A stretch of 64,000 nucleotides of DNA, taken from Tubiluchus corallicola. Lineage: Eukaryota > Animalia > Priapulida. The position numbers and the translations under genes were made by a program. The stretch is from contig JAQGDQ010000021.1 in assembly GCA_030141605.1 (NCBI GenBank), positions 372,001 to 436,000 of the forward strand. Reading direction: 5' to 3'. This document shows positions 15,748 to 62,100 of the stretch, piece by piece. Position 1 is the first letter of the stretch, and every line of letters starts with the position of its first letter. Under the pieces are notes generated by a model. It searched no databases. It saw nothing but the letters and a program-made list of their open reading frames with translations, and was not told the DNA's origin.

Positions 15748-15778
<31 letters not shown>

Positions 15779-20272: not shown

Positions 20273-20286
20273 GTTGCTGAGGCAAC
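20273..20286. promoter_or_regulatory. RFX X-box-like motif GTTGCTGAGGCAAC upstream of the polyQ gene
   Basis: Near-palindromic match to GTTGCCATGGCAAC. A second related site GTTGCTAAGGCACAC is at 20341 and a CRE TGACGTCA at 20671. Confidence 0.45.
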
Positions 20287-38146: not shown

Positions 38147-41100
38147 ATGTTTTCATTGCTTAAATTGAGCCAGAGTCTAATATTGCAACAGTGCAGCTAC
38201 TCGCTACCAGGACTGTTTGACGCATGTAACATGAGCTGCTTCAAAAAACATAAAGCACAACCTAAAAGTATGTCAACTGGAAAGAAAGGCTTTGCTTTAC
38301 GTGATTACTTGAATGCTTCACCCCCCACGAAGAAAACAGAAGTTATAAAATCTCCAAATGACAAGAAAAGCTACAGGTGTGGAACCAACCTTGAACACAT
38401 AATTATAATTTTACTTTTGGTTAATGTTTGTATTCTGTAATTGTTGCCAATTTCACAGTTTGCACATTTTGTGGAACTTGTAGTCTGTCAGTTCTTTAAA
38501 AAACACTTGAATTTTACTATTACGCCCAAATATTACTATTACGTTTCACCTCTAACTGTATTCATCACACATGGTAGGGGTGGATTTCTCTCATTTAAAT
38601 GAGCTTTTAAACAGTCACAGTTGTAGAGGTACGATGGGTAACGTTGTTTTTGTGGTTGTTGTTGAAAATTGTATTTGGTGTTTTCAAATTGAAAATATTA
38701 AACATTTTTTACTTGATTGCTCTTTGCATGTTGTTTGTAGAAAGGAACTCAAAGAATGACTAACAAACCTATGCCAAACAAATGCATTAATTTTTAATAT
38801 GCAAGTTTGACCCACAATTAAAAATCTCAGTTTTTCTTTCTGGTAGTCCTAGTGTAAATCTTACAGTGAGGCAACCTGATCAGCATTTATCAGTTGATTG
38901 CCAGAGTTTATCCAAAGACAATTATTTCAAATAAGTATATTTATAAAAAAATGCAGTCTGTACAAGTCAAGTCACAGAGTCAATCAGCAGAATGAAAGTA
39001 CCTGAAGAAAATCTTTTAGAGTTTTTATCCTGCTAATCCTAAGTTAAATTCATTATTTTCAGTAAAAATACCTAACCTAGCTTTGCAATTACATTATTGT
39101 GCACGATCCTAAATCTTCAATGTGCGCAATAATGTTTTAATCTTTCTAAGTTTTATTGTCTTGCTTATCCACAAATAGGGAATGTCAGAAAAAATATGCC
39201 TTGCTTGTCATAAAAAATTACTGCACTTTTTTCAGAGCATTTACACTGAAAAACGGATTGAACACTTTGCTGATATCAGATACTCTTGGTAATTTTATTA
39301 TGAATTTATTATATACTGCTTATAATATTGCACAATTTGCTGTGCTTAATTAAATTTTTTTGTTGCAGTTGATGTGTTAGAGCTTCCATATTCTTAGTGT
39401 TATGTATAATTTATATTAGGTGCTAAATGTACAAATGACTGCATTAAAATATTTTTATGAAATTCATATACAGCATTTTGAAACAGCATGTATGTCATAT
39501 AACTGCGTACAGCAGCAATATGTTTTGTTTTTTATACATTTGTGTTTTCAGCTGAGGCACTTGATGACGATAATATTTGTGAATCTGACAGTGATTTTAC
39601 TGACTCTGGCAGCAGCAGCTGTAGCAGCGATGAAGAAGATGAACTGCCTGATTTTCAAGTATCTGGTTCTCACCTTTTAAGAGTTTTCACTTTAATGTTT
39701 TCTGTCACAATTGCATTGCAATTTGCATTGATCATGTGTAAAGAAATGTAAGGAAAACTGAAATGGGTGTTTAGATTTCGTTGACAGTTTTTTCATTACC
39801 ATTAAATGTCTTAATTACCATTAAAATTGAGTTGCTTAAACAGTTAAAGTTGTTTCACCATAGTCATGTTAGTTTTTTTGTTGCTTGTGGCTTATAAGAT
39901 AATTGTTTATTATCGTAGTTTCTACTATAATCATTTAGGAAGTGCATCTTAAGTGAATTATGCTTAATATATTGCAAATATAAAGTGGTACGAGGTCATA
40001 CATTCGCATTAACAAGAACAAGAATACACATTCGAGTTGAATTGGGTTTTTGTGGGTGCTTTATAACTAATTGTTCCAATTATTCCTATAAACTTCTTAG
40101 GGCATAAGAAACCTTTCTGCGGAGTCTATTGATTCCTAGATTTAGATTCTTATATTTACTTTTTGTGGAACAATAGTTAAAAATTGTTTTGCACTTTAAT
40201 CATCATTTGCCATTTAACAATTTCTAATTTTAATTGCCTTAGTAATTTTTTCAGTTTAAATTGGCAGTAAACCTTCACTGTTTCAATAATGTTCTTGTTT
40301 AACACTAAATCTTCTTCGTTTTCTTTTATAGCGACAAGATGTTGATGTTGATGCTGACGGCAATCGAGTGGATAGACCTAAAAAGAAATCATACAGAGGC
40401 TTAAAACTGGTAAGATTTCCTTTGAGTGAGACCCCCCTATGCATTATTTTATTAGGTATTCATTTCGAAAATTACCAGAATCTTGCATGTTTGACTAATT
40501 CACTTCTCTTACAGATCAACTCTTTAGCTTCATTTCTTGCAAAACCAGTTTTAATTTTTTTTTGTGAAAAATTGTTTTGTAGTTTTAAAGTTTATGCATA
40601 TTTTAGAGTGCTGCAGCACTGGCAATCGGAGTTGGGAGTTTTTCTGACCCTGTCGCAATACCTGGCCTTGCTCACTTTTTGGAACATAGTAAGTATAAAG
40701 TGTTTAGCCTGCTTGTGCCACCACGTTGCTTCAAGTATATGACTTTATTGCCATCAGTTGTTATGAAGCTTAGCAATGTCAGAATCGTATTTTGTGCATT
40801 ACTCTTTTTAATTTTATTTTAACAGTATTGTATTTTCTTTTATATTATTTCTGAGCAAGATACTGCTGCTTTTTGGAGTGATTTCATAATCTTAGGATAT
40901 AATGTTATACTGTTAGTGCGTGCTTTCATAAGTGTAACAAGCAGTGCTGAATCGAAAGACATAGTAGCTAGGGTACCGTCTAGCAAGATTTCTCAGCAAA
41001 ATCCAGGATTAAGCATCCGATTCACATTTAACTTATTTTCTCGTCTCATAAAAGCCCATTTTTTATTACTTTAAATACGTAATATTCATTTTTTTATTCT

Positions 41101-44100
41101 GCATTCTGTCATATATTGTAGTTTAAGGTTGTGATATATTTAAGTTTATGTATTTTGAAAATAAAATCGCTAATTTCTAATTGACATTAATGTCAGTATC
41201 GCAGAGAGATGAGAGTGAAGCACCGATAATTTAAGATCACAAGGGTGCGTGAGTGTACCACTTCTGATTATGGTCAAGGTGGTAGGTGCGGACCATTGTT
41301 AGTTAATTCGCTGCTGATGTGGACATGCAAATTTTATTACATAACAACAGCCTGTAACACCAATGCTTGGAAATTTTTCAAACGTGGCTGTGAAACTCAG
41401 TATTGAAGTTTGGCTTACATTTGCTTTCTAAAGTTAAAAAAGATGAGAAACTGGAATTGGTTTTGGATAAAACATGTTGCATTGATAGCGAAGGATTTGT
41501 ATGAGTGCATTTCATTGTCTTCATCAGTTAAGTACATTCTTCTGAGAGATGCTTCAATACTGATACAGATTAGGGAAACTATTCTTGGTGTACTATAATA
41601 AAATAGTGACAAACTCAAACCGGTGCCATGTCATTGCTTGAAGGTTTGAATGTAAAAAAGCTTAGATGCACGGACAGCACGACTATTGAATCATTATCTC
41701 TTTATCATACGTTTATGTCCTAAAATACTTGGTAATTTTAATTCTAGCTTTTAAGAAGAATTATTGCTTTTTAAAGCATGAGTGTAATACTAAATCTTGA
41801 AATTTAGTGGTTTTCATGGGAAGCAAGAAATACGAAGATGAAAATTCGTTCGACGCTTTTGTGAAAAGCAACGGTGGATCTACCAACGCTTCAACAGACT
41901 GCGAAGTGGTGAGGATTTGTTGTTCTGCTAAAATTGTTGCTTGAATCAAAATCAAAATTGTTCGTGTTATGTAAAACTGGCCTAGTGTATTTCTTTTGTT
42001 TATTTGTTCAAAATTAAATACCCGGGTGGAGAATAGACATTATTTGCTTCTTTACTGACACAAAATTATGCATCTAATAAATACCTTCCCTGTTGTCTCC
42101 TTAGTCTCACTTGTCTCACTTTGGAAGCAGTAGGTCTTGGGTTTGAATTTCTGTGGAGGTGCAAAATGTTTCAGACTTTTTAATTTAACATTGCTCTCGT
42201 ACATTTATATAATTGAATGCATAACACTTTGAATGTCGTGTTATTAAAGCTTCTGCTGCAGTCTTATTGTCATCTGTTTTGTTTCAGACAGTCTTTCAGT
42301 TCGACTTGCATCATAAAGCTTTACATGAGGGGTTGGACAGGTTCGCACAATTTTTCATTAGTCCTTTGTTAAAACAAGACAGCGTCGATAGAGAAGTGTC
42401 CAGCGTTGATAGTGGTAAGTAATTTGCTCAGAAGCATTTGCAAGATATTGATAATTGTGAAATTGTGATGTTTTTTACTTACGTTGTTAACAGTCATATT
42501 TGTGTAAATTACATATCGCGTCATTCATACTACAGTTTTCTCACACTTACTGCATCTTGTACAGTGATGCTGTACATTATTTTTAGGTAAGTCTTTATTC
42601 AAATTCTTATTACAATATAATAATTATGTAAGACACACATCTGATATTTTTATTTGCAGTATCTAATTTTGCTGATTTTTGTTACTAGAATTTGACAGTA
42701 GCAAGAACAGTGATGCGTTCAGAGCGCAGCAGCTGTTAGCAAAACTAGCAGTATCGGGTCATCCGATGGGAAAGTTTATGTGGGGTAATCAAGCATCCCT
42801 AAAGGACCAGCCACTTTCTCAGGGCATTGACGTGTACAAGCAACTCCAGGAATTTCATAGGCGCTGGTATTCTGCTCATTACATGACTCTTGCTGTACAG
42901 TCTCAAGGTAATTTCTTAATAAGGGTATCTAAGAGAGTAACAATGTACATCAATTTTAATGACAGTAATGCTGACAAAACTATCTAGTGTGTGCTAGCCA
43001 GACAACTGTTGTGTTTTCTTGTTTTCATGACAATTTTTTTCAATTCTGGTTGTCCAACATCTATAACAGACATAATGGGCATTTGGCAGTGTACAGAGTT
43101 GCCACCATAGTGGCAAATTGCAGTTTTCCTTGAATTTTATTGCATTTTAGGTTTTTTACCAATATTGGAGCTTTGGAGCTTTTTGTGGAATCTTGTTAGA
43201 TCCTTATTAGATTAAAGTTCTAAGTGAGCATTCGGCTTTGTACTACAAAGGAAAATTCCCTATCCAAATTGATGCAATACAAATATTCTAAAATCTTGCA
43301 AATCTAATTGGGCGATAGTTGACATCTGTGGTTGCGACATATGGAGCCGAGAGATATTTCAAACAGTCTGTGTTATGACTTGCTGTAGACTTATAATGTT
43401 AACACAATGACTGCCATGCCTGATCCTAGTGTTTTTTCCAGATACCAAATATGAGCTTAAACATAACTGATGTAAATTCTGCAATATCACTTTGTCTCAC
43501 ATCAGTGCATATATGAGTGCATAGCCAATTTGCTAGCAAAACTTTAAAGTGTGTTGGTGGACTGCCAAGCTTTTCTGTTCACAGTTTAAAGTTATTTAAG
43601 CAACTAGATCATAATCTTAGTAACAGTATATGAAACATAACTTAGTTACTAGTATACTCAGAGTTGCCAGTCAATGTGTTAATTAATAGCATTAATTTAA
43701 ATTACATTGTATGCAGACAGTTTGGATGATTTGGAACAAATGGTTAGAGACACGTTTACTGCAATTCCAAATAAGTGAGTCTATTTTCTCAATTGTTTTG
43801 TTATTTTTGCACAAAAAAGTCATCTGGCCCATATGATAATAAACTGCTAGCATAATAGTGTTCTTTCAGCTAACTCTTTACTTATTTGCCCTTTGCTTTT
43901 ACGTCAAACACGTTTGTCTAGTTTTACATTAATTGCCCAAGCACAGGCTTGTACCCATCCAAGCTTTGTTGCAGCTAGCACTTTAAACCATTTTTTTCTG
44001 GCATTTTGTACGTTTTTATTACAATTTTGCCATTCATTGTTACCATTTCTTGCTATATTTACCTATTTGGCATTTCAGTTTTCTTTTCATGGAAAAATAT

Positions 44101-47100
44101 GTCTATTTACTCCACTAGCGGCATTGTTCCATTAAATTAACAATTATACTCAATTCTTTTTTCAGCAAACTACCAGCTCCAGATTTTTCCCAATTAAAGG
44201 TTGGTCATTACTTTTGCTTTTATTTTGTGCCATTTGAAGACTAATTGCAATCAAAAATCAATAAAGTATCCAGTCTGAATCATCCGAAATATAATCTATG
44301 GGTCCTTATTAACTGCAGCAGATACTTCTAATTAGGCGTGACCTGCTTTAATGTTTCACTGAAATCAAGCAAATTTTAAAAAAATTAAAAAAATTCACAA
44401 ATTACAGCATTCTGTTTACAGAAAGAAAATTACGCTGTAGTTTATTCTCTGATAATCACTTCAACAACAAAAAATTAATTACTTATGGTTACACTAAAAT
44501 ATTATTATATCACATATATTCAAACTACAATTGCCAACAAAAGCAGTTCGACAATTAAAGAGATAAACAGCGCAGTAAATATGGTCGGTATTGATTAGTT
44601 TATCGACAAGTGTTCTTGCCAAGCTAGAAAATCTAATCTTCCCATGGGGCAATGAAGACATTCTATTATTCTGCTCGACTAATTAATGGTGTACCTATGG
44701 CTTCCCTTCATGATGGCTTGAGGCATCTGTTCAGTGTTGCTGCAGTTGTATGCATATGATGACCAGTAATTATAATAAGCTTTCAATAGTGGATGAGCTT
44801 TGCATAATTATGACGAACTATTTGACTCAGTCTAGTTTTGTGTGTTTCCTGTGGGAAGTCACACTGTAGCACATGTTAGCTTTCGCATTTACGCCATAGA
44901 TGTTTACCACTTTGGTACATTCTTGGGTTAAACGGAGATGCACTGATGATTACTGTGTCAAAAGGTAAGTAATGATAAATAGTATTAAAGTTAGATAATT
45001 ACAATTTACTTAATTATTTATTGAAAGACTAGTGTCTACATTACAATTTAGGACGTGCAATAAGGTTCAAGATGGTTAACTCCTGAAATGCCTTTCTTGT
45101 GCTAGGCCAGTTCCTGCACTGGTATTTTAAAGGGTTCTAAGTTCTAATCTCTTCTGAGATTTTTTTGTTACTGCAACTTTTATGTCCTCCTTGAATTTTT
45201 GTCGTTAGCTGCAAAACTTACATTTGAAAGTTTTGTTTTCATTTATTTATGCAATCAGTGAAATTATTTGCTTCATCAATTATGTAAGTTATCATAAAAA
45301 AAATCATGATGGAACCTAAAGTGTTAGCAAATTTACAACTTTATTAAATATATTGCAGGTATTTAAAGAATATTGTTACCCGCCAACTGGTAGTATGCAA
45401 GAATAGTCAACTTTTGCAGCTTCAAACTTCGGTATTGCAGAAAATGTTTATGATCTCGCTATCGTATTGTGACCTATTGTTTGCCTGAGCATTAACATTT
45501 TGTCATAACATGTTGCCATCATATACAGTGCAGAAGCGGCACCAAGAAATGCTCTTAACGTTACATCAGATGCCTACAGATGATGAGATTGCCTCAGACG
45601 AATGTGATACATTGCCATACATTGTGGCTCCTGCAGATAATATTGATGAACCTGAATTAGTAGAGTGCAATGAAGACATCTTTGACAAGAAAAGGACACT
45701 AGTAGATAGGCGGCACAGTACTGATGTCACAGTTTCCAAACCGCTTGCTAGTTACTATCATAATGTACGCCGTAAGTCAGCCAGACTAAGGCATGCTCTG
45801 CCAGTTGTGCATATTAAACCTGCACCTATTTCTTCTTCACCTATGCCAAAATCAGCTACAGGTGGCTCAGATCATGATGAACTTGCCTTACCTTTTGTGT
45901 GGGATAAACCTACATTAATCATTACTTCGCCTTCACCAAAACCAGATACAAATATTGCAGATGATGGAGAAATCAAGTTACCAGTTGTGGATTGCAAACC
46001 TGTACCTATTGTAACATCATTCCTGCGAAAATCTTACCTGGATTCTGCAGATGATAACGAAGCTTTTCGAAACTCCTTAGATTTTAAAAACACTAAGCCT
46101 GAAGTTGCCACAGTTTTTGGTAGAAGGAATAGCAAAAGATCAACTGTGGAAGGAAATTTATCTGTAGCTGGAAAAGCCTGCATAATAAATGAAATCGTGC
46201 ATGTTCAGAGCAAAAGTACAGAGACATCTCATTTAAATGTGAATATCCAAGTAAGTTCTGAAAGAATAAATGAAAACTCAAAAATGGTTTTAGTAACCAA
46301 AACTGGTTTGAGGCCCTCTAACCTAACGGCCAATGTGCAGTGCAACCATGTAACAGGCAACAACGTTTGTGAAACTTCTTGTGTTTCGGAAACAGATAAA
46401 GCAGACACAATGAACAAGATTAATGACAAAAGCAAAATGCCTACAAGCAGCATCACTTATTCCAGACTTTTACCACTGAAGCAGGCGCATTCTAAAAGTT
46501 CTATACCCAAAAGATATTCTGATCAAAAAGGTAGAAGGATAGCTTCATTGACACAGCAGATGCTTCATAGCAGCAGCTGTAGAATCTGTTTAAGTTATGC
46601 AAAATGGAAATTGAGTAAATCTAGAAAATCAGAAGCTACAACAGCAATTCAGAAGCGGAACTTTTTTAGAATGTCCTTGACAAAACATAAAATGAAAGGT
46701 GATAAGGTGAGACAAAATTCTACTGCTGTTAAAGACAAGCATAATGCTGATGTTGAAACAAAAGTTCAGAAAAGCAAGTGCTATGTGAAAAAGGTGACTA
46801 GCATGAATAAGAAAAGTGATAAACACGGGAAGCATCAAATTACAAACAAACAAGCTTCTTTACATTTCAGTTCGTCTGAAAATGACAAAATTCTGAGAAA
46901 GCCTACTTCGACTATAAGTACAATTCCATCGGAGAAGGACAGCAGAAATTTATCTGTTGCTGATGAGAAAACCATTCCATGTGGAGATAGTGAAAATGCA
47001 ACTAGAAACATTTGTTCCAAAGAAAAATTACTTTTGCATAGTAAACATGATAAGGTTGGCCATGGAGGAAATTATTTCAGTTTGCATAATTGTTGCAATG

Positions 47101-50100
47101 TTAGTGACCAACTTTTGATAAATTTTCCCCGAGCCGCATCGGCTATGTTCACGGATAACCAAGAAAACCAAAAACCAAATGATGCTAGAAATCGGTCTAC
47201 TTCTGCACCACAAAGCAGTCGTATTAGTCATTTTTGCGCAAATGCTCTTACTAGTGTCCAAGATGTCAGAAATGCAAAAACTAGTCAAGACTGTAAATCA
47301 AGTAATGCTAATATAGTGAAAGAAAAACGGACTTTGTCGTCTTCTACAAAAAAAATAATACCACCTATAAACAGAGCACAAACGTTACCAAAGCCATTGC
47401 ACCGAGCTGAAACGTTCTGTGAAAAAAAGTTGGTAAGGCGTCATACTATAGATACCGTGTGTACTGCAGCTTCTTTAGAAGTCAGTCTTGATTCAATTAT
47501 GCCCAGCTCTCCAGAAGATGCAAAACCTATAATTGGGCAAGACTACAACAGTACTACTCAGGGAGGGCATGAAATTTGCAACCAACAGAAACTAGTGGAC
47601 ATGACACCACACAGAATTGCGAAATCTGTATCACTTTCTTGTTGTGAATCTGCTGTTTGGATTGCAAAAGCAGTTAATATGTCTACTTGTAGTGAAGGCA
47701 ATGAACCAGTATATAATTTAAGTCATTCTTCTTTAGAGAATCATGAAAGTGAAACAACTGAGACTACTGAAAGGAATGTGAGTGCAAGTACATCGAGTGC
47801 CACAGTCAGTAGTGAAAGCATACATCAGCACAAATCAAACAGTGTAGTTCATGAATGTAAAACAGAAAATTCAAAGGTAATAAACTTGCCCAATTGGAAT
47901 GAAATGGCTAGCTCATTTGTTTTGCCTGATGTCAATGTGGGGCCTTACCAAGAAGACAAATATCATTTGGAAAATGATAAAGCAGCTCATCATACTAAAC
48001 AAGCAAAAGTCATTCATTCTGGCTTAAAAACAGACTGTTTATTACTGTCGCATAGAGAGCTTAAGATTTGCTTTACCAGAAGCGCTTCATCGGCAAAGAG
48101 CGTAGATGATTTGCCATCTGACCGTCAAAGGAAGTTATCTGTAGGTGATAAGGCATTGTTAAGACAAAATTTGTCTTGTGATGCTGAGCCATTTTTTGGC
48201 TCGTTATCTGTGCTTATGAAACAGGACCGTCATTTAACATCTAACTTGTCTTCCATTAATCGAAGCTGCCCTAATTTAACAAAATCATCTGATACAGAAA
48301 GCTCACATGCCACAGTGCTTAAGCCTGCTGCCATAGATATTAAATTTGACACCACTTGCATTGACAAGCCCCTTGAAGGGAGGTTTATACAAACTCCTAC
48401 GGTGTGTGATGATGTGAACCAAGGTGAAACTGTCGGTACAGCCATTAAAGTGACTGTGTCTAAGCCATTTTCACCAGATTGCGAAAATGTACATGATGCT
48501 AGTGATAATCAGTCAAATTCGCAGAAAGAAAATCTACCGAATTCTGAGCCAGAATTAAGTTCTTCAACAGTCACGTCTATTGTTCCTTTAGATCAAGCAT
48601 CTAAAAGACGCTCATCAGGATTCACTTCTACTGCTCCTGTTTCAGGGCTTAATATGTTGCCTCATGAATTTTACAAACCAAAAGAGACAGTGCCTACTGA
48701 AGACACATTGAAAGTAGGTGTACAGTCTAGAAGACGGTCGTCAGTATACTCTTCTGCTACTCCTGTTTCTGGACTTATTATGTTGCCTCATGATTACTAC
48801 AGACCACTGGAGACATTGCCAATGGATGATATGTTGAATGTAGATATAGAGTCTAGAAGACGATCTTCTGCTACTCCTGTTTCTGGGCTTATACTGGCCA
48901 AGTGTGAACCTTGTAATTTACAAGAGTCTGTGCCAGAGGATTCTCCTTTGAAACTAGCACCGCTGCCTGCAGAAAAGCCAAAGGTTAAAGTCCACTATTC
49001 ATATCTGCAAGATAAAAGTTATAAACGAATAAATAAGGCCAATAAGAGGGCAGATCATCGTGGGTTTTCTAAGTTAGAAGATGAAGAGCCGATTTATGAA
49101 CAAATGCATGTACAACCAGTAGCACTTAAAAGTGAAGCAACTACAACACCTAAACAATGTAATCGCCTTAGGGATCATGATATCACTGTTGCAGTTATGA
49201 AGATGGACATTTTAACTCCTTGTTCTAGAGTTCATACTAACAATCTTGTAGATACTTGGATTCTTGCTGTTAACAAGTATATTATTAATGGCTCCATCAT
49301 GAAAATAGATTATCCTCCTTTAGAGAGTTGTGAAATATTAGATCAGTTACCATTTATATAAATGGCAATGTTTTACATACATTATAGTTTAAAATAACAT
49401 AATTCGACTTTTTAGTATACTTATTAAATTTACTTATTGTAATATGTATATTAGTGTAGTTTAGTCTGTGGATATTTATTCCTTTATTTTGTTGCAGTTT
49501 TGAAAGTATAGCTATTTGTAATCGTGTACTTCGTAATCTTTTATCCCTGAAAACTTTGCATTTGAAATAATGTGGCAGCTATGGACAATGGTCCTATTAT
49601 TGTGTACGTTACATCTTATTTTACTTTAAAATCAGTCAAGCTCTGGCTTTTTGTCCATCTGCTACTACTTTTCTTGAGTAGTTGTTCCTGAGCTGAACTA
49701 TATCTGTCCAAAGAACCAGAACAATTGTCATTTTGGCAATGCTCTTGTGGAAGAATTTCTAGCTAATATTTGATGAACTCTAAAATATATAACTGAAGTT
49801 GCTGCATTTATGTTGGATAACTGCACGATAAGTTTTTGTAGCTTGGAATACTAAATTCAATTAGTGATTGTGTTTATAGTTTATTACTGTTTTTGTACTG
49901 TAGTTTGAGCATTATAATATTTGTTGTGTGACAAATGCAGTTTTGCTGTTATTAGAAATAAAATGAACATACATTTGGCGGGTTAGCAAGTTATTTTCGT
50001 GTTTTATTTATGGCAAATTTATTTAGTTATAATAATTAGTATGCTAATTTATTTTAGCTTTTTGGAAACATTGAGCAGTCTAATCCTACTCATCATGAAA

Positions 50101-53100
50101 TCCTTGTTCAGCACACTTTCAGTGCTAGAAATGAACCTCTACCTGAGACAGTTGAAACTGTAATTGAAGAATTAAATTATAACAATTACAAAAGCATAAT
50201 ATATAATAGGACAGCTATTAATCTCAAATGTTTTTTTTATTAAATGCATTCATTAATGTTTAATACTTATTGAATGGTATCTTTTTTTGGAAATACTGTT
50301 AAGAGCATACATTAAGCTGTGAATAAATAGCACACCACAAACACTTTGCCTTGTTACATATCTGGTTAATTAAAATTTGGCACCTCACGTGTATCAAGCA
50401 GAAGCAAAGTGAAAACTAAAAACACGTTAGTTCGCATACTCTCGTCATGTGTAGAGAGACTAGAATTTGCCTGAGTTGATAAAGCTGATCATTTTTGGTG
50501 CAAATTTTTGTTTTTTATTTCTAGTTTTTAACTTATTAATTAAGAATTGGGATCGAAGCTAATAAATACTTAAATTTGATGTGCAAAGAAATTGTTCACT
50601 GTTTTTTGTTGCCTTTTTTAAATGCAATAGAGGAAATGCTTAAGAAAGTTCCTAGAAGATCTTAAAATAACAGAAAAATTATAGAGTTTTGTTTGTGGGC
50701 TCTCTTATATAGGCTTGACACAAAATACTGTTCAAATACAGAACGTTGAAGAGGCATTATTTACTTCGTATTAACTAAAATTTCTTCGACTTCCGTGGGC
50801 ACTCTGCAGGTTTTAGAAAATATGGTGTGCTAAAAATACTTGTAAAATTAGTGCTCAATTTAAAATTCCAACTTGATAATAATTATTATAATTGGATTTT
50901 TAAATTTAAAATTCCAACTGTCGCTTATAACTGTCTTGCAATTAAATTTTAATAAAAGAATAAATCAGACAAGTGTGGTTTTACTCGTGGTGTAATTACT
51001 GTAAAGACAACTATACTATTTAAATGTGCAACCTTGCATCTTGAGGGAAGTAGCTCTTGTCACAGACGTGTGCCATGTGTGCGTGCAGTTTACATCTGTA
51101 ACTTAACATCTTAAAGAATGTAGCCCTTGTCACACAGATTGCACATAAGTGCACTAATTACACTTGCATGTTATCATAGTTGAACAATGCAGCATTTACC
51201 TCTATCTGAAAGTTGGCTGGTGCATTGTAATTTGGTGTTTTATCCTGCAGTTATAATAGACAAAGACTTTGTTTCAAGTGATGTCACAATAATGTTGTAG
51301 GGTCTTTGGTTAAGCACATTCCATTTATTTGTTGTTTCAGCAACCTTTTGACACAGATGAATTTAAGAAGATATTTAAAGGTAATTTATCCTACGTATTA
51401 CTTGAGATTTTTTGTTTTGACCTCACAAGATTGAGCAATATATTTTATATTTGTTTTATAATTTGCAAATGGAACACTGAATTTTGCAGCTTTATGTATC
51501 AATTCTTTTTATTTAGTGATGCCAGTGAAGAAGAAGTATGAGGTAAAAATCACCTGGGATTTACCTCCTCAGCATCACAATTACAGGTAGTATTTTAAGG
51601 CTAGTATTCTGATTATTTATGGAATACATGTCATGTAAGTTATTCCAAGCTGTACAGCTGGAAACCTGTTAACAGAAGAGAATACGAATCATGTGTGATA
51701 TTGCACTACAACTAGGTAGAAGTAGAAATTTTATTTATTTCTGATGTATTTCAAAGATAAGATCAACCGAAAGCTATTTTCCGACAAAGAAAAAGAAATA
51801 AAAAATTCTACAAAGCATATAAAGACATGAGCAGAGTACTAGATTGTCAAGAACACATACTATATGTAGCTGCCATGTGTTGGCAGTAGCACACATTTTG
51901 ATAGAAATGGTAAAATCCCAGGTTCGTATTGTGTTTAGTATGGGTATGTAAGAGATTCATGACAAGTTGGCTCAATCACAAATGGTTTAGATGACATTTA
52001 ATAGGATAATTATAAATGTAAAATGTTTCAACACGAGAGTTTACAAGCAGATTGAATGATGAAGAATCTTTATATTGGTTAACAGAGTAGTTACAGTGTT
52101 GACAATTTTAGAATTTTTATATAATATAGTTGCGATATTATGAAGCATAAGATTGTAATTTTGTAGGTAACTCAGCTAGTTGAATGGCAAGTATACGACA
52201 TGTTGTGCAACACTGACATTCACAGGAGGCGTTTTTCAAATATTTTTTAACAGAACCTTTAAATTTGTTTAAATCATTACATGCTCTACTTTCTTCAGGT
52301 GACTTATTCCGCAGTTTAACACCTTGATAAGATAAAGAATGATAACTAAATTTGACTGTTGAAAATCTGGGAAGTTTTTGAGTATGTACTGAGCTCGGGT
52401 TATAGTGTTGAGCATATACAATATTATGCCAATTCTATTTTTGAAGTTTAATTATTATTTGTTTAAAAGTCGAAAGAAGTCGAGAAAAATCAGAAAAAAA
52501 TGTTTACAGCTTACAGTGTAAAACAGAAAACATTTGTAGTAACCAGGCTATATGGAAAATGCTTGCAGCAATCAGGATAAACAGCAAACACTTGCAGTAT
52601 GTGATCAGTTGCAATGGAGTAACGACTTTTCTATTTTACAGATCAAAACCACTCCATTACCTGTCATGGATAATTGGGCATGAAGGCAATGGCAGTCTTC
52701 TAGCTTACTTGAAAAGCAAGTATGTAATTGACTATGTCTGTTTTAGAAGCAGTCCTCCTCTATTAGCACATACAATCTTCTAAGACTAAATGCAAAGATC
52801 TCTTGGTACATATGCAAAAATCAAGAGAAAAATTGCCATTATACCAGATTTTATGACTTATTCAGCCTACCTGCATTAACTAGAAATTAGTTTTTCATTG
52901 AATTTTTTACAATCAGTAAAATTTGTTACTAATGTTTTCATCAGCAAATATGTAACGAGTAAGTGAATAAGACAGTAAATAGTGATGTGTGACTGAGTGA
53001 CTGAGTGAAATGAATGAGGGATGATTGAGTAGATAAGTGTGCAATAAATGAGTAAGAAAGTGATTGGGTGAGTGATGGGTGAATTAATGATGCATGAATG

Positions 53101-56100
53101 AGTAAGCTATTGAGTCATTGAACATGTAAGTAAATTGTGATCAACACATTCAGCTGCTGCTGTCACTACCCAAGTTTCATTTGCATTCGTTGATACTGAG
53201 CTTGTAACTGATCATTTATTATTGCCACTTGGAACAGGAAAACCCATCAGTGAGTTTACTGGCTTTCGATTAATTTTCTCTGTCATTAACAGTTTGTTTG
53301 TTCACTTTGCCAATTACTCAACTTCAACTTCTACACATTCAGCTTGATGGGTGCGTTTATAAGTCAATCAAGTTAACTGTTAGTTGGTTATTTATTGGTA
53401 GTCATCATTACCATTTCTGTTGATGTACATTGTAGATTATTAGCACTGGAGTTGACATGTGGTAACGATGAAAGTGGTTACGAACACAGTACAACACATG
53501 CTCTATTTAGCATCAATATTTCTCTTACAGAAGCCGGTCTGAAGGCCATTCATGAGGTTTGACATAAATCAATTTTTCGGTGTACTCAAAAAGCCTTGCC
53601 TGTTTGTAATCAGTGATTTCTAGTAGATTCGTAACTGTTACTTTTACTGTATAGACAACAGAGTAAACTAGACAATACGATTGTGTCATTTAGCAAGATT
53701 TCATAGACCTGCTCGGTTTGTTAGGTTTCTGCGTAAGTGTAACATTTGGAAATCTCGATTATCAACATTTGAAATTTATTGTGGTTCTTTCAACAGTTAC
53801 ACACAGTGAGATGTTAAGAAACATTACATACAAAATAATAGACTTAAAATAAAAATGGTAAAGATTTTGTTCATGTAGTTTAAAATAAAAGTAATGAAAT
53901 ACTGTCTATTGTTTGTTGAGACTATTGTTTGTATAGTAACTATGAAGTAAGTCTACAATTATGTAAAATTTATTAATTGTTAAAAACGTTCTTGAATTTT
54001 GTTCTTTTTGTCTTTCCATCAGCAAGAAAAATTAATTGCCTGTATTTAATTTAAAATCAGAATAAGCCAGAGAAACATAGATGATTAGTTGTTACAGTCA
54101 GTTTTTTCAAATTTTCTCAATAATTGCGACTGTACTATACATCAATATCAGAATAATGCATAGACTATTTGTAGAAGTTGCATGTTAGGAGAAACACTGC
54201 TTTTCAAGGCTTATATGATACTCAGTCTTCTAAAATAACATGTTTGATAAGGAACTACTTTCTAAGTCATCAGTTACTTTCTCAGACAAGTAACTTGTGG
54301 TGGTCAGTTGTTACAATTGTACATTTTTTGTGTAACATCAACAGTAATAACGTTTTGTCATAGTTTGTGAAGAACTTATTAGAAATGGGTGTTTGTAAAC
54401 TAAAGCCTGTAATTTTTTTCATATGTTTGGTTCTGGTCTGTATATGGTTTGAGTCATGTTTTGAAGTAAAATATATCATATTGTCACAGGTCTTGAGTGT
54501 TGTATTCGAGTATTTGGAAATGCTGAAACAAGAAGGACCAAAGGAATGGCTCTTTAATGAGATGAAGAAAATAGACGATACAAGTTTCATGTTTGCTGCG
54601 GATGTATGTTACACTTTTTTGTAATTGCTTATAGGCATTACATATTATTGCCGTAATAGCACTGTATTTTCTTTTCATAAGCGTACTGATGAATATTGAC
54701 ATTGTAATTATCATCAGGGTCACCTGATGTCACTGTCAATGTGGTCATCATCACTGATTTTTACCATTATTGTCATGTTGTTATCTTTATCTATCATCAT
54801 CAGCATAGTCAACATCGTCAGCTTCATTGTCATCGTTAACATTCTCACTGTCCTTGTCATTGACATTTACTTACCAAAATTTTTTTAATTGTGCTTAGAT
54901 ATGTAACATGTAACACATTTGGCTTTCATTTAACGTTGTTTGACTTTACCGTTTTTGACCTGTATATAGATGCACTATTGTTGATTAATCCTGCCAAGTA
55001 TATTGAAGTCTTTTGATCCGTGGACTGTGATTCGATGTTTTCTATGATCATTTTGATCAAAACAGCATATTTTTACTTGATATAACTTGAACAAACTAGG
55101 TTACTTTATGAGATAAAAAATGCCATTGATAGCACATTCTGTTACCCAAATGTTTCTGCGTAAGCCTGTCAAGTTCACATGTACACTAACCGAAGTGTGT
55201 CAAAAACTAGTAATGGCATTTATTTTACAGAAAGAAACTGTAGAGGACTTAGCCATCAACATGCATTACTTCCCAGCAGAACATTTCATTACCGGAGAAA
55301 AGCTTTTCTATGAATACAGTCCCCAAGTGAGATCATTTAATTTTTACACTATGTCACTATCTGCTACTGACTGATTTTTTTTACTAGATTTCTGTAAGTA
55401 ACATTGCAAACTGTACTGTATTTTTTTACTTATTCAATGCGACACTTTCTAAGCTAGAATTCAACATTTTTTGGCAATTAGGGTTTTAATTTTGAGAACA
55501 ATCCTTAAAAATGACTTAGGTTTCTGTTCGGCCACATCCATTCAGGGTGAGTGTTAGATTCTGCTTTACAAGTTCAGAAAACATTTAAATTTTTGGTTTT
55601 CAGTTTTATTACTATTTGTTTTTGATCACACTTTACATTTTTGCAATGTAGGCCATAGATGATAACCTCAGACTCTTGACTCCAAATAGAATGAATGTCA
55701 TGCTGCTGTCTAAAACTTACGATGACATTTGTGTTTCGAAAGAACCGTGGTATGAAACGCGTTATCATCAAGAAGGTGAGTACTGTACTATTAATTTATA
55801 TTTCTGCAAATGAGAGTTTCTGTCAATTCGGGCTCATGATTTCCAGCGACATTTAAGTTCAGAGTGTGGCGGCTCATAGCTAAAATTAGCGGAGGTGCTG
55901 CTTCAGAAAATTTTTTACCTTTGCTTTAATACTGTGTAAAACAAACGAACACATGTACTTTTAATGTTGTAATTTGTAATTGTAATTTTAAACAAACAAA
56001 TGAAAGTTTAGACCTAAACTTGATAATTCCTAAACAAAAAAAAATGTCTTCTCCTTACTAATAGACCAAATTGTCGCAGTTCAAGCTTGATCCTTTCCTG

Positions 56101-59100
56101 GTAAGCACGTGACAACTGACAACAAACTGTTTGAGTGATAGTACTTTCTTTACCTGGTCGCATGGCCGCATGTGCACAACAGCCAAACACTGCATTGCTG
56201 GAGTGCGCCGTGCTGGGCTGTGAAGCGTATACACTACTACACTCATGTGCTCTGGTTCCATACAAGTATAAATAATGAGCTAAAGAAAAAAGACTTATTA
56301 CGTTGAATATTATCGATAATATCGAGTGAAAATAGGTCGTGCTGCAGTTCCACAGTACCTATACACGAGCCACCACTGAGTTCAGATGTGATATCATTAA
56401 TACATATATTTTAAGATTCAATTTCAAGTTCCTTCAGTTTTGTCTAGGATTACTAGTAATTTCTCAATTTTGCACCACATGCAGTAGATTCTAAAATATT
56501 TCACTAACATTGTAGTTTATTATTAAAAAGAACAAATGTGCAAAGCCTTCTAAGTTTTGAAATTTGACTACAAATATTAAAAATATCAAGTTTTTTTGTT
56601 AATGTAGCTGTAAAGCTGCAGTTACACTGGCCACATTTACATTAAAGTGTTGTCAAGAAAATTTGACACTCTTTTTGAAACTGATCATTCAGCAGACAAT
56701 TTACGCCATTGGTTTAGAAAATTTGAAATTTAGTGTTCTCTGGTGAGCATCGACAGCAGACAAAACTTTGTAAATTTTTCAGCAAAAATAGTAACTGTAG
56801 ATGTTGGTTATGTAAATATTATGCCAAATTTATACAAAGAAAGATTCTAAATAGTTATGTGACTTGCCTGACTGTGTTCCCAACAACTTCCCAAGTTTCA
56901 AAACATTTATATGCAAAATTTTACTCTGTGAATTCTTATTATCACCTCCTTTAGGATTAGAATATTTCTTTAATTGGCTTTAGCCATTAAAAAATATTTA
57001 ATGTTTTAGTTTGTTTATGATTTTACAGTTGAGTTTGGTAAGTTATTTTAAACCGTACGTATCAGTTTTTTGTAGATAAACAAGTAGATAATGTTTTAAA
57101 TAAAAAAATATATAATCATAATAATCGTAATGATTATAATAACAGTAACAATTAATATCATTTGTGCATCAGGTACAAACACACAAATATGCATCTTCGT
57201 TCTAATCTTCTAAGTATATATCAGAATCTTAGTGCAATCCATATTGTTATTTATTAATTATGTTTTTTCTGATTGTTTCTTGTCAATGCCAACTAATCTA
57301 GCTCAAAAATGTCAATGATTTTGTATGCTTTTCCTTTGTCGTATTTTATCTGATTGATCTGCTGACATGTTCAAGACAATTTTACCAAAAAATGCTGATG
57401 ACTTCGTAAAAACAAAAACCTAATTCCACATAAAGTTATTCCGTAATATTTGTATTTGCTATTTGATAACACCTAACATTTTTGAGTGAGCACAGGTGAC
57501 AGGGCAACTAAATATTGTTGTATTTATTCAGATTTTGCCACAGAGTGGTTGGATAAATGGAGTCACATTAAACCTCGTTCAGAATTACACCTGCCAGCAC
57601 CTAACAAATACATCGCGGAAGATTTTAATATTAAACAACCAGACTCTGAACTGACTAAGGTATTGACACTGTCTCAGTTTATTACAACACGCAACAAGTT
57701 GTGATTCTAACAAATTTATTCTGTGTCTACTGTTTACCTTATCATTGCAATTCTTGCCCAGGTATTATAAAGTAGGTTTTTTGTAGATCTTAACATGTCT
57801 TTTGTGCAGCTTTCATTAAATCATGAATCATTGTGTTAATCACTTGACTAACTAGAATGTAATTTGTATAACCAGTGATTTAGGATATAAATAGTACAGA
57901 GAGCTTTTATCTTTAAAAGAGGTCTAGTGAGTTGTTGCGGCATTAGCTTTATTTGCTTTCAACTTTGCTGTTTTATACCCTTTTTAAATTAAATTGTAAA
58001 TGTTCTGCCTTTGTGCTTGTCAGTTGATTAAATTATTCAGTCAGTTCCATTATCTTGGTATCTGATGTTAAAATAAATTGGTGATATATTAGATATCAGT
58101 AATGCAAACTAAAATTATTTTCTTGTGAACGAAATGTGTACATCTCTCCTTTTGCGATGTTTTAATTCTGGCTTCATTTAGTGCCACACGTGAAAAACAA
58201 GTAATATGTCTTAGTTAATCAGTTACAAAGTATCTCAAAGTTGATACTGTTGATTATAGATATATTGACAGAGAGCTTTTAGTCAAGATTGCCCTCCCTA
58301 TTCTTAACAACTAAAATGCCTATTTTTTCTATAAAGAGGTAAACACAAATTTTGCTTATTCCCTCTTGGCACCTTATAATTTAATCTTTAATTAATAACA
58401 ATCTGTTTTCAATTTTATCAGCAAATTAGTTTATATTTCTAACAATACATTTTTTTTTAGTATCCAGTGAAAATAATTGATGACAAATACTCACGGCTGT
58501 GGTATAAGAAGGATGTTAGATTCAAGATACCGAAAGGTTACGTTCAGTTCATTTTGGCTTCAAGTATTGTAAATAAAACTCCACTTCAGTAAGTATTAAA
58601 CCTTTTTCAGTTACTTCTTTGGGTGAGAATAGAGTTTAAAGGATTAGGAAACCAGTTTAGTGCTCAATCTTGAAAATACTGGTGCCTACTGAAAAGGACA
58701 AAAAATACCCTTTTACAGCTTCTGAAAGAAGCGTGATATTTTTCAAGACTAATATGAAATATTCGGTGACATCATTCAGATATCACACATATTTATCATT
58801 GTATTATAGTAAAAAATTTCTGATGAGCTCTTATTGCAATTTAAACTCAGATTTTAGTCGGTCAGTTCAAGGAGACATTTTGTATGGTTTTACCTTTGTT
58901 TTGCTGTGTGCACTGTTATTACTGTCATTTATTTTGCAAAATGCTGTAGCTTTTACCAATTTTGTTACAGTTACACATGTTTGGCTCTGCTCGTCAAAAT
59001 ACTGGACTATAATCTCAGTGAAATATCTTATGACGCTTATGTAGCTAACCTTTCGTAAGTATTTTTTACACCATGATTTATTGTTTTTGTCTTAAATTAA

Positions 59101-62100
59101 CAATATCATGCATAATTTTTCCTTATTGTATTTTTTATGTTGCAGACATGCTTATTTTAAGATTGCATTTTTGTTTTTGGTCACTCGCTTGTGTAGTAAC
59201 TTTAAAACTGTTTTCTTTCACTGTGATGTTGACATCATTTCCCTTTGCGTAACATGTTTTTGCCGTTCTGCTGTGTGCAGTCAGTTTTTGTTGTTCTTGA
59301 TCATCTAAGATATTTTTTGTTTGTCTCAGCTATGCATGTGTTTCACATGCATGACGTCGCCCGCTTGCGAAGCAACCTGTTATAAAGAGATCTGTTCAGT
59401 AGCCACAAACATAATTTGCTAAAATCAAACAGTCAGCAGCTCCTGTTCTGTACATGGGAAACTATAGCAAACGAGTAACCGAATACTTCACATTCTAAGC
59501 TAGTTAACGTACTGCCTGGTAATTTCTTAGCTTATGAAGAGAGTCATGCTGTGTGTTTAATAGATAGTTAACAAAATTAGGCAGTGTGTTGCACCTGGTC
59601 AGTAATTGATAGCTTTTGTGGTGCATCATCTCCCATATACAGCTGTTTATCTTAAAGGAGATGCTATACACTCCCAAACAAGGCCAAGACAACTTTCTGC
59701 CAGTCGAGTAGGTCTCATCTTGTCTTTAATAGATAGCTATGTTCTGAACCTGGCACATTCTGACCTTGCTACATTGTGGTCCTGCCACATTCTGGTCCTG
59801 CCCCATTCAGGTCTTGCCACATTTTAATCTGGCCACATTCTGATCCTGCCACATTACGATCGTGCGACATTCTGATCCTGCCACATTCTGGTCCTGCCAC
59901 ATTCTGATCTTGCCACATTTTGATTGTGCAACATTCTGGTCCTGCCATAATAAATAGCTTTAAATAACATATAGCTTTCAACATGTAACAGTGAAATAAA
60001 TATGTAGCTCAGTCAGCTACTTAGTTTATTTATCTGCTATTTAGTCAGTTAATTGATCAACAACCATTTACCTAGTTGAAAATTCACCTTTATCAGTTAA
60101 GCAAGTTGAAGTAACTGATTATTAAATTTTTATTAATGTGATGGCTACTTTTTCCACAGTGAAATGTTTCTTTATAATTCATTCTAGTTTGTTTTGTCGT
60201 GTGAAATATTGACAACTGTTTCCTCGGTAAAATAATTTATTTAACTGGTTAACAGTTCTCTTGTTTGTGTTTTGACCTGACTGCTTAACTGCACATTTAT
60301 GAAAATGTTCAGCATTTTTCAGATGCTTGCTGAAAGGCTGTTCTAAAGGCCTGCTGCTTAAAGTCAATGGCTACAATGACAAATTGCCTGTAAGTGTGAA
60401 TAGTTACTTAATTTTTTTTGAAAATGAATGAAATTCAATGGGAAACATCACAGTCCATTGTCACCATGTCTCTGTCTTGCCAGACTTTTAACCTTCCCAA
60501 ATACATCTGTAATTATTGTACTTCTGTAATTTTTTGCATTACATTGTAAAGAACACTTTCTCGGTTTGGTAAAGAAATGGTGATCTAAGAAAATTTGTTT
60601 ATTTAAGTAGTACAGAAAAAGTGAAGTAGTGTTTTGGTTGAAAGTTCATTCATTTAATATCACATGTAAGTTCATCTAAAATTACTTGATTACAACCGGA
60701 ACATATATCTCTGTACTAACAATGGTTAAACATTTTGTCTACTATTTGTAGGCACTGTTTCAAACAGTTGTCGATAGCATAGCAGACTTCCAGTGCAGCC
60801 AGGAACTTTTCACAGCTATAAAAGATCAACTGCGCAGGGCATACTATAACCTCATGGTTAAACCTAGCAGATTGTGCAGGTATTAAAATTAACTGGATAA
60901 ATTTCATCTATCTTTCTACTAATTTTTGTTTCTTTTTTAACAATATTAAGAACATATTTCAAACGTAAATGGTTCTTTCTAGGAGAGGCTACGATAAACC
61001 TACTTGTCATTATTGAATGGAAAAATTTTTCTCCTTCTGGATGAATAATCCAAATTTAGCCTATTGAATATTGAACTGCAGCTACTAATAGTTGTTTTTC
61101 TTCATAGGGAATTGAGATTGATGTTGCTGGAGCATGTACATTGGACACCTGCTGAGTCTCTATCTGTTTTGGACGATATTACAGTGGAAATATTGATGTC
61201 CTTCCTTCACAATTTCAAGAATACATTGTTCATTGAGGGATTTGTACACGGAAATTTTACATCGGATGTAATTCGTTTTATAACTATGTTATTGCTCCAG
61301 ATATATCCTGTCCATTTGTGTCCACTGTATTTTCTTCCAATGTTTCCTGTGACTATGCTGGACGCAGTGTCCTTCTATTTTGTAGCAAAATTTATTAACA
61401 TTTTATTTTTAAGTTTAACAGTAGGTTTTCATAAAGTCTTTATATTTGTAGGAAGCACGCACATTTGAAGCTGTGCTCAGGAAGAACCTTTGTTCTAGTC
61501 CTTTGCTACCTATTGTCTATCCGGAAACTCGTGTTGTTGCACTTCCAGAAGAGGACAGAACACTTGCTGTGGAAAATTTTGGTACGGCTGATGGAGATGT
61601 GAATACAGTTGTGACAAATTACTATCAGCATGGACCGGGAGATCTGCGGAGCTTATGTGAATTGGAACTCTTAAATGTTTGTTTATGTTTGAAACTTTTC
61701 TAAATATTTGTACTGCAAACCAAAATCCAGCATACTTATTGTTATTTATTAATGATTGAGGCGACAAAATCCATGTCATTATCACACTCAAACCTCTAGT
61801 GTGAGACTCTGAACTGGCTGATGTGTCTTAACTGTGTTTGTATGTATATTACAGTCTTTCCTAGCCTCATTGCTGTTTAACTGTTACAGCAAAGTACCAA
61901 TGCTGTAATTTCTCAGCTCACCCTCTTTTTAAGGCAAAGTAATATCAGGACAATGTTGTGCTTATTAAAAAATGTTACAAATTTTGCAAAAACAGCTTGT
62001 TTTTGCATTTTTGTGTATTTGTGATTAGGTCAGAATTAATCTCATCTTTAAGTGCAGTTACACTGCAGGCTGTTTTGCATTTACGTGCAGCAAAAATGCT

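What the first reader, a model, noticed from the sequence alone, without database searches (positions are those of the whole stretch)
44200..51340. Same-strand nested gene: a 1283-aa intronless orphan ORF inside nardilysin intron 10
Seen: the host intron is 7.1 kb, far longer than any other nardilysin coding intron here. It holds a 3.85-kb stop-free ORF on the same strand, while the flanking exons (PDFSQLK|QPFDTDEF) join cleanly in phase 0. The ORF seems to have its own transcript signals: donor AAG|GTAAGT at 44964, acceptor TTGCAG at 45358, in-frame stop at 45486 before the ATG, and AATAAA at 49957 followed by GT/T-rich sequence. Known: nested genes are more often antisense, and a sense-strand intronic polyA site can truncate host transcripts. 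Inference: a lineage-specific, tissue-restricted gene whose expression may be mutually exclusive with, or may regulate, full-length nardilysin.
Basis: partly seen in the sequence, partly recalled or inferred. Interest (0 to 1): 0.75.

Follow-up and report, generated by a model that had tools for sequence, protein, structure and literature searches.

The report
Orphan gene inside nardilysin intron
In what is likely a priapulid worm, one intron of the housekeeping protease gene nardilysin holds an unbroken 1,283-codon reading frame on the same strand with no relative found, likely a separate, fast-evolving gene for a protein predicted to be unstructured and rich in kinase sites; such nested genes are common in flies and mammals, and its expression is untested.

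Summary
Nardilysin coding intron 10 (44200-51340, 7,141 nt; the other 24 are 136-1,756 nt) contains a same-strand 1,283-codon ORF (45510-49361). Chance is excluded (about 1e-40). It has strong codon periodicity, near-intronic third positions, and more RRx[ST] kinase motifs than shuffles (5 vs 0.6 after removing repeat copies). No homologue, domain, fold, terminal repeat or diverged copy was found. AlphaFold gave pLDDT 33-34. The host is likely a priapulid.

The signals are mixed. The 44964 donor is the best in the intron and the 49957 polyA site has good context. The 45358 acceptor is weak, and no promoter signature was seen. Two points are new. A stronger acceptor at 44421|44422 allows expression from the host transcript. 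A fish-like record suggests intron 10 splits what is one 74-nt exon elsewhere, so the intron may be a gain.

No RNA run holding the stretch was listed, so expression, tissue and any effect on nardilysin are untested. The few variants show no amino-acid constraint. Best reading: an old, fast-evolving, likely germline-biased same-strand nested gene, a known class. Interest 0.4.

The parts
38270..44199 (+). [quoted passage not shown] Exon 10 is 44166-44199 (34 nt) and ends in a phase-0 donor.
44200..51340 (+). Host coding intron 10, GT..AG, phase 0, 7,141 nt; possibly a lineage-specific gained intron
   Evidence: P0004 comparison
44402..44422 (+). Strongest acceptor-like site of the intron (first exon base 44422), 222 nt after the host donor; with the 44964 donor it brackets a candidate 543-nt exon
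   Evidence: 13.2 bits, P 0.006; predicted only
44900..44964 (+). Candidate 5' leader exon (start unknown), ending in a perfect-consensus donor; contains 3 ATGs
   Evidence: predicted only
44965..45358 (+). Candidate 394-nt 5' UTR intron: strong donor, weak acceptor; alternative acceptors at 45420 and 45441
   Evidence: predicted only
45348..45488 (+). 46 open codons in the ORF's own frame, closed by TGA 45486-45488. With the 44900 ATG and the predicted splice this would be a 64-codon upstream ORF ending 21 nt before the main ATG.
   Evidence: the TGA is also in X1 contig 45277-45675
45510..49361 (+). Nested ORF P0001, 1,283 aa, Ser/Lys/Thr-rich, predicted disordered, no transmembrane stretch
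45798..46067 (+). Three diverged in-frame 90-nt (30-aa) repeats, residues 97-186
48600..48892 (+). In-frame 126-nt (42-aa) repeat, two full copies and a partial third, each with an RRSS motif; length-variable in run X1
49957..50005 (+). Candidate polyadenylation signal with upstream TGTA words and a downstream G/T-rich stretch (3' UTR about 600 nt)
   Evidence: predicted only
51341..63690 (+). Nardilysin coding exons 11-26; the gene runs beyond the window. Exon 11 is 51341-51380 (40 nt).
   Evidence: three host junctions are spliced in RNA-like contigs of a relative

Best explanation
A 1,283-codon reading frame lies on the same strand inside nardilysin intron 10, and it is likely a separate, old but fast-evolving gene that would be transcribed from a start inside the intron in a narrow set of cells (likely the male germ line) and is predicted to make an unstructured, kinase-regulated scaffold protein. 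Shown: the frame, its position, its coding signature, the motif excess and the lack of detectable relatives. Inferred, step by step: (1) In most cells the nested promoter is off and the 7.1-kb intron is spliced out whole, so nardilysin is unaffected. (2) In expressing cells a transcript starts shortly before 44964, loses a 5' UTR intron, and ends about 15-20 nt after AATAAA 49957. (3) Translation starts at 45510 or 45549, damped by upstream ATGs. (4) The protein acts through short linear motifs (RRx[ST] sites of PKA type, two EP[IV]Y tyrosine motifs), not through a fold. (5) Where both genes are active, some host transcripts would stop early as a side effect. (6) The gene most likely arrived by insertion of a duplicate (retrocopy or DNA copy) whose parent can no longer be recognised.
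For: Open frame at about 1e-40 by chance; 3-periodicity P 7e-47, present in all six 642-nt blocks, with none in the 5' or 3' flank (P 0.39 and 0.48). Codon positions 1 and 2 differ from intron composition (chi2 204 and 179) while position 3 is close (chi2 11). Synonymous usage fits the intron model better than the host-exon model, and CpG o/e is 0.43, like host introns at 0.42. This points to long residence with weak codon bias. RRx[ST] occurs 9 times vs 0.7 in shuffles and 5 vs 0.63 without repeat copies 2-3 (0 of 2,000 shuffles reach it). The two shifted frames show 1 and 0, and nardilysin shows 0. The donor at 44964 and the polyA context are better than background. There is an in-frame stop 21 nt before an ATG with A at -3. 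X1 contigs cover 26 of 30 bins, 18 of 22 records are at least 99% alike, the one indel listed in the ORF is in frame (12 nt), and none of 15 substitutions is nonsense. Class behaviour: same-strand nested fly genes are mostly single-exon, fast-evolving and testis-biased (PMC3814207, passages).
Against: No transcript evidence supports the model. No promoter signature lies before the ORF: no TATA box, no strict X-box match (recalled consensus), and no CpG island, unlike the host promoter at o/e 1.3-1.45. The 45358 acceptor is at decoy level. An upstream ATG with equally good context at 45444 and an in-frame upstream ORF would hinder translation. The strongest acceptor (44422) makes more sense for a transcript coming from the host. 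Substitutions in X1 are 6 synonymous and 9 non-synonymous; 6 of 14 transitions are synonymous against 34% expected if neutral, so no amino-acid constraint is visible. Internal repeat copies differ at all codon positions (7/10/13). The motif classes were chosen after seeing the sequence. AKAP-helix, 14-3-3 and PxIxIT patterns were not enriched. A low pLDDT from a single sequence does not by itself prove disorder.
Confidence: 0.52

Rival explanations
1. Host-driven expression. The ORF has no promoter of its own. Nardilysin pre-mRNA is alternatively spliced from exon 10 (or from an upstream non-coding host exon) to the acceptor at 44422 or 45359 and ends at the 49957 signal. The ORF is translated as a separate protein, and full-length nardilysin is not made from that transcript.
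For: The two best splice signals of the intron (acceptor 44422, P 0.006; donor 44964, P 0.024; both together 1 of 3,000 simulations) bracket a 543-nt exon 222 nt after the host donor, a normal intron size here. No donor of the form GT[AG]A with a good context lies between 44200 and 44400. No promoter signature lies in the intron. Mammalian precedent: 13 human and 14 mouse intronic retrocopies are expressed with upstream host exons (PMC4772013, passages).
Against: From exon 10 the host frame would stop 18 codons into the new exon, upstream of a further junction, which from general knowledge is a nonsense-mediated-decay target. The leader would hold 17 ATGs in 44422-44964. 543 nt is over twice the longest internal host exon (225 nt). 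The matrices rest on 24 sites, and the sites were picked after the scan.
Confidence: 0.22
2. Giant alternative last exon. Exon 10 splices in phase 0 to the AG ending at 45533, fusing nardilysin's first 322 residues (zinc-site domain) to a 1,275-residue disordered tail.
For: A phase-0 acceptor exists 8 codons into the ORF and gives an open join. Four of 24 real host acceptors score as low or lower in leave-one-out. The site falls at the linker after the first domain, by alignment of P0003 to IDE (the domain boundary is recalled). An unreviewed note reports a giant terminal exon in this genome's IQGAP (e1-10418089).
Against: The acceptor scores 2.3 bits, and 138 decoys in 14,563 nt reach that. 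An out-of-frame AG lies 5 nt earlier. The stronger in-frame acceptors at 45420 and 45441 run into TGA 45486. The ORF has its own ATG in good context. The fusion would lose three of four peptidase domains.
Confidence: 0.12
3. A transposon, endogenous viral or other mobile ORF that recently inserted into the intron.
For: It is a long uninterrupted ORF in a swollen intron that may itself be a gain. X1 depth is raised over 48379-48989 (19-32 vs 2-8 elsewhere in the intron), although the tool warns that depth is not copy number.
Against: No Pfam hit above cutoff, no PHROG hit, no PDB hit. No hit among 1.84 billion representatives or in viral contigs. No long terminal direct or inverted repeats. X1 shows 22 records, 18 of them at least 99% alike, against 56 contigs at a true repeat near 55.9 kb. 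Third positions and CpG depletion match host introns. Repbase and Dfam were not available.
Confidence: 0.07
4. A recently silenced gene, or an assembly join that placed a foreign segment in the intron.
For: Variation looks neutral. The frame is open for 46 more codons upstream of a single TGA, which could be a recent nonsense change (chance about 3-6% by my estimate). No listed X1 contig spans the intron.
Against: No break in 1,290 codons. The one length variant is in frame. The intron has canonical ends and the flanking exons join in frame. X1 lists no joints in 43650-51650, though X1 may be the assembly's own sample.
Confidence: 0.07

Closest known systems
Same-strand, single-exon nested protein-coding genes of Drosophila and mammals (PMC3814207, passages; PMC8467205, abstract and section 11; PMC11694760, passages)
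   Same: Wholly inside the longest intron of a many-exon housekeeping gene; same strand; uninterrupted coding sequence; signs of fast evolution.
   Different: The coding sequence is 3,849 nt against a fly median of 817.5 nt for same-strand nested genes. No parent or relative was found. Expression is untested. The host intron may be lineage-specific.
Mouse H13/Mcts2 host/nested pair (PMC13309782, abstract and outline only)
   Same: A nested gene inside a host intron, with intronic polyadenylation as the route by which it could cut host transcripts short.
   Different: Mcts2 has a methylation-controlled CpG-island promoter and the interference is shown by experiment. Here no island was found and nothing is measured.
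Intronic retrocopies expressed with host exons: mouse Taf9 in Ak6 (PMC4772013, passages); Utp14b in the first intron of Acsl3 (PMC5750009, passages; its use of host untranslated exons is recalled)
   Same: Uninterrupted coding sequence in a host intron, with splice signals upstream that could join host exons.
   Different: Those have recognisable multi-exon parents. Here no parent, poly-A remnant or flanking duplication was found, and the insertion follows ten coding exons.
Pragmin/PEAK-type scaffolds with EPIYA motifs (PMC4946704, search listing only; the long disordered N-terminus is recalled)
   Same: Long low-complexity region with EP[IV]Y tyrosine motifs.
   Different: The motifs here are EPVYN and EPIYE. 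There is no pseudokinase domain and no sequence similarity. A resemblance in style only.

Membership tests
Same-strand nested protein-coding gene | Lies wholly within one intron of a host gene, on the host's strand | tested here: met
Same-strand nested protein-coding gene | Coding signature beyond chance | tested here: met
Same-strand nested protein-coding gene | Own transcript, distinct from the host's | not testable with these tools
   No RNA holder listed; splice and polyA signals are only predicted
Same-strand nested protein-coding gene | Purifying selection on the protein | tested here: inconclusive
   6 synonymous, 9 non-synonymous, 0 nonsense of 15 substitutions; one in-frame indel
Retrogene | Multi-exon parent gene in this or another genome | tested here: inconclusive
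   No homologue; no second hit in the window; the genome itself is not held
Retrogene | Poly-A remnant and target-site duplication | tested here: not met
   No run of 6 or more A after 47422 in the intron; no long flanking direct repeat. Both decay with age, so this is weak.
Transposon or endogenous viral ORF | Transposase, reverse transcriptase, integrase or viral structural domain | tested here: not met
Transposon or endogenous viral ORF | Terminal inverted or long terminal repeats | tested here: not met
   longest inverted arms 27 nt at 70%
Transposon or endogenous viral ORF | Many dispersed copies | tested here: inconclusive
   X1: 22 records, 18 at 99% or more; local depth rise at 48.4-49.0 kb unexplained; no whole genome
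Giant alternative terminal exon of nardilysin | Strong, phase-compatible acceptor at the start of the frame | tested here: inconclusive
   45534 is in phase but scores 2.3 bits; stronger in-phase sites meet TGA 45486
Giant alternative terminal exon of nardilysin | Exon 10 to ORF junction in RNA | not testable with these tools
De novo gene | Alignable non-coding sequence at the same site in an outgroup | not testable with these tools
   No related eukaryote genome available. The length and internal repeats argue against a recent origin (inference).
Pragmin/PEAK pseudokinase scaffolds | C-terminal pseudokinase domain and an exact EPIYA motif | tested here: not met
Selenoprotein or read-through extension | SECIS element in the 3' UTR | tested here: not met
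   Rfam: 0 matches in the window; a loose recalled pattern gave none in 49362-50100

The most novel reading that the evidence does not exclude
The arrival of this gene created nardilysin intron 10 by splitting an ancestral 74-nt exon into 34 + 40 nt. The locus now works as a splicing switch: using the acceptor at 44422 and the intronic polyA site turns the nardilysin transcript into a message for the 1,283-aa orphan (alone, dicistronic, or fused to the protease's first domain), so the two products exclude each other. With the CEP290 case noted elsewhere in this genome, it would point to a lineage in which kilobase-scale genes repeatedly land in housekeeping genes on the same strand and become their introns.
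Probability: 0.13. Interest if true: 0.72.

Novelty: new member of a known kind. Interest (0 to 1): 0.4.

Why it matters
On the best reading it is one more same-strand nested orphan gene, unusually large, in a poorly studied phylum. That is useful for annotation, because gene finders can fuse, miss or truncate such loci. It would matter more if the intron proves to be a gain caused by the gene's own insertion, or if the host promoter and alternative splicing drive it. Either would be a directly testable case of intron origin by gene insertion, or of a housekeeping transcript switched to a different protein.

Tried and rejected
Homologue searches, all blank:
- Word-seeded search of 705-2,246-aa proteins: 0 of 7,986 candidates.
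- phmmer of residues 1-1197 against 1.84 billion representatives: 0 at E 0.001; the last 86 residues were not in that query.
- Exact look-up: absent.
- ESM Atlas: best score 0.81, recognition 986, leads only; residues 1020-1283 gave no usable hit.
- Pfam: one hit at E 0.81, below cutoff. PHROGs 0. PDB 0.
- Metagenome contigs 0 of 27 and viral contigs 0 of 4 pattern matches.
These blanks are weak for a fast-evolving disordered protein. The host exon found only 3 relatives among 27 candidates, at best 57-66% identical, so this lineage is thinly covered.

Expression: no RNA holder listed. Run X2 (RNA is a guess; about 90-93% alike in host exons) laid 0 records on 43650-51650, including the short host exons there. 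This is no evidence either way. X1 has 4 of 30 bins without cover, also uninformative.

Other checks:
- No whole genome is held, so copy number and a parent could not be searched.
- Two single-sequence AlphaFold models had pLDDT 34.4 and 32.6; I ran no fold search on them.
- AKAP helix, PxIxIT, 14-3-3, Akt, PP1 and SxIP patterns were not enriched; strict X-box, TATA and SECIS patterns were not found (patterns recalled).
- Intron position: of 80 nardilysin/IDE-like metagenome loci, 4 had three or more aligned pieces. I inspected 9 of the 80. Six read across the intron-10 site (L002, L004, L009, L010, L022, L047), but all are intron-poor or intronless there. L033 and L038 have alignment gaps just before or over it. 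No intron-rich invertebrate locus was obtained.

Literature: nardilysin + intron + nested gene gave 0 papers. Nested genes + same strand + intron + ascidian gave 0 (my early tunicate guess was dropped). A nardilysin isoform search gave 7 papers, none about a nested gene by title or start of abstract. The library lacks most subscription papers, and no supplements were read.
Full report
Observation. The window holds a + strand ORF at 45510-49361 of 1,283 aa, inside a stop-to-stop frame of 1,290 codons. Around it, 26 exons from 38270 to 63690 join with GT..AG ends into 919 codons without a stop. They match nardilysins P0003 (named, Salminus) and P0002 (unnamed) by tblastn. Intron 10 is 44200-51340, phase 0, 7,141 nt; the other 24 have median 645 and maximum 1,756 nt. 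RNA-like contigs of a relative (run X2, about 90-93% alike) are spliced across three other host introns, so the host gene model is sound.

Organism. The neighbouring SLC17-type transporter has a near-identical unnamed relative, P0005. P0005 is 73.8% identical to the Priapulus caudatus protein and groups with it in a FastTree of 69 near-full-length proteins out of 120 listed (no support values shown). The animal is likely a priapulid. No whole genome is held.

Is the ORF a real coding region? From its own base composition, an open frame of this length has probability about 1e-40, and the other five frames carry 48-156 stops. Codon periodicity is strong (P 7e-47), holds in all six blocks, and is absent from both flanks. 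Codon positions 1 and 2 depart far from intron composition (chi2 204 and 179). Position 3 departs little (chi2 11), and four-fold sites depart modestly (chi2 17). Synonymous usage fits the intron model better than the host-exon model (log-likelihood -1903 vs -1962). CpG o/e is 0.43, as in host introns at 0.42. I infer long residence in this gene body with little codon bias, not a recent foreign insert.

The protein. It is 12% Ser and 8.5% Lys, poor in aromatic residues, with no hydrophobic 19-mer above 1.01. Single-sequence AlphaFold models have mean pLDDT 34.4 and 32.6. This fits disorder but is also expected without an alignment. There are three 30-aa repeats and a 42-aa repeat. RRx[ST] occurs 9 times against 0.7 in block shuffles, and 5 against 0.63 once repeat copies 2-3 are removed. 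EP[IV]Y occurs twice against 0.02. These motifs were picked after reading the sequence, and their meaning (PKA-type and Src-type sites) is recalled. Six other motif classes were not enriched.

Against amino-acid constraint. The 15 substitutions that run X1 shows in the ORF are 6 synonymous, 9 non-synonymous and 0 nonsense, near the neutral expectation. Ten of them and a 12-nt in-frame insertion lie at 48790-48927 at one depth, probably on one contig that may be an allele or an extra repeat copy. Repeat copies differ at all codon positions. What seems kept is the frame and short motifs.

Relatives. None was found. There are no terminal repeats. X1 lays 22 records on 43650-51650, 18 of them at least 99% alike, unlike a real repeat near 55.9 kb with up to 56 contigs. 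A mobile element is therefore unlikely but not excluded, since no repeat library or genome was at hand. X1 may be the assembly's own sample. It confirms the letters, including TGA 45486, but is not independent support for function.

Transcript signals. With matrices from the other 24 host introns, the donor after 44964 is the best in the intron: 10.9 bits, above all decoys in 14,563 nt, P 0.024. AATAAA 49957 is one of 10 in the intron, but it ties for second of 26 in downstream G+T and has two upstream TGTA words. The host promoter region (34.8-35.4 kb) has CpG o/e 1.3-1.45. Nothing comparable lies before the ORF: one 200-nt window reaches 1.03 on few sites, and there is no TATA box. Several upstream ATGs lie in the ORF's frame and end at TGA 45486. 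It lies 222 nt after the host donor and, with the 44964 donor, brackets 543 nt. Joined to exon 10 it gives a stop after 18 codons. This keeps open the reading that the host transcript feeds the ORF. A direct in-frame fusion needs the weak acceptor at 45533|45534 (2.3 bits).

Age of the intron. Exons 10 and 11 are 34 and 40 nt. The fish-like record P0004 looks like an unspliced gene prediction. It reads 24 residues straight across this site, flanked by intron-like text at the positions of introns 9 and 11. That implies one 74-nt exon there, inferred from a protein record and not from DNA. Locus L002 has an intron at the intron-11 position and none here, but it is intron-poor. Intron 10 may thus be a gain on this lineage, or a loss in fish. 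P0004 also seems to have an intron inside the window's exon 8, so the gene structures differ both ways. Whether the ORF's arrival made the intron is untested.

Mechanism and rivals. Best (0.52): a separate nested gene with a start inside the intron, narrow and likely germline expression, and a disordered motif-bearing product; interference with nardilysin would be a side effect. Rivals: host-driven splicing (0.22), fusion as a giant last exon (0.12), mobile element (0.07), dying gene or misjoin (0.07). No RNA holder was listed, so these cannot be separated here.

What is known. In Drosophila 71.27% of nested genes are on the opposite strand. Same-strand ones are 72.53% single-exon and 58.46% peak in testis (PMC3814207, passages). 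In human and mouse, 74-78% of simple protein-coding pairs are opposite-strand (PMC8467205, section 11). Across all gene types the bias is slight and anticorrelated expression is rare (PMC11694760, passages). Nested transcription causes host intronic polyadenylation at H13/Mcts2 (PMC13309782, abstract). Intronic retrocopies can use host exons (PMC4772013, passages). Rat nardilysin peaks in late spermatids (PMC13527935, passages), which is only suggestive for a worm. Searches found no report of a gene nested in nardilysin. Two unreviewed notes on this genome describe an intronless CEP290 on the same strand in a PLPBP intron and a giant exon in IQGAP. I did not test them.

Verdict. The feature is real, and it is a new member of a known kind. 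Its size, the strong upstream acceptor and the possibly gained intron lift it above routine, but expression, origin and any regulation of nardilysin are unshown. Interest 0.4.

Noticed in passing
window 48379-48989: Run X1 depth is 19-32 here against 2-8 over the rest of the intron, and two versions of 48760-48957 exist (one with 10 substitutions and a 12-nt in-frame insertion). This may be a longer or variable repeat allele than assembled.
   Followed up: partly
window 45348-45488: The ORF's frame stays open for 46 codons upstream of a single TGA, and the predicted 44964-45359 splice extends it in frame to an ATG at 44900. It could be chance, an upstream ORF, or a lost N-terminus.
   Followed up: partly
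window 14680-26528, minus strand: Several long open stretches (508, 158, 157, 154, 115 aa), Gln-rich or basic, with no Pfam hit. Probably one or more further low-complexity genes without known relatives.
   Followed up: partly
window 28639-33366, minus strand: An SLC17-type MFS transporter gene, head to head with nardilysin; the CpG-rich stretch at 34.8-35.4 kb between them may be a shared promoter.
   Followed up: partly
window about 1000-9800, minus strand: Exon-like stretches that read like a cytosolic sulfotransferase, recognised from recalled motifs and not searched.
   Followed up: no
window 55866-55960: A short high-copy element in nardilysin intron 17: up to 56 X1 contigs and depth in the thousands; also hit by run X2.
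   Followed up: no
window 42689-42907: Nardilysin exon 8 (219 nt) is uninterrupted where fish-like record P0004 appears to have an intron, so intron positions differ in both directions.
   Followed up: no
window 12988-13295: A short open stretch that reads like the tail of a non-LTR retrotransposon protein, next to GAT and TTA microsatellites; the resemblance is recalled and was not searched.
   Followed up: no
window 59742-59947: A 16-nt tandem repeat, about 13 copies, in nardilysin intron 20.
   Followed up: no
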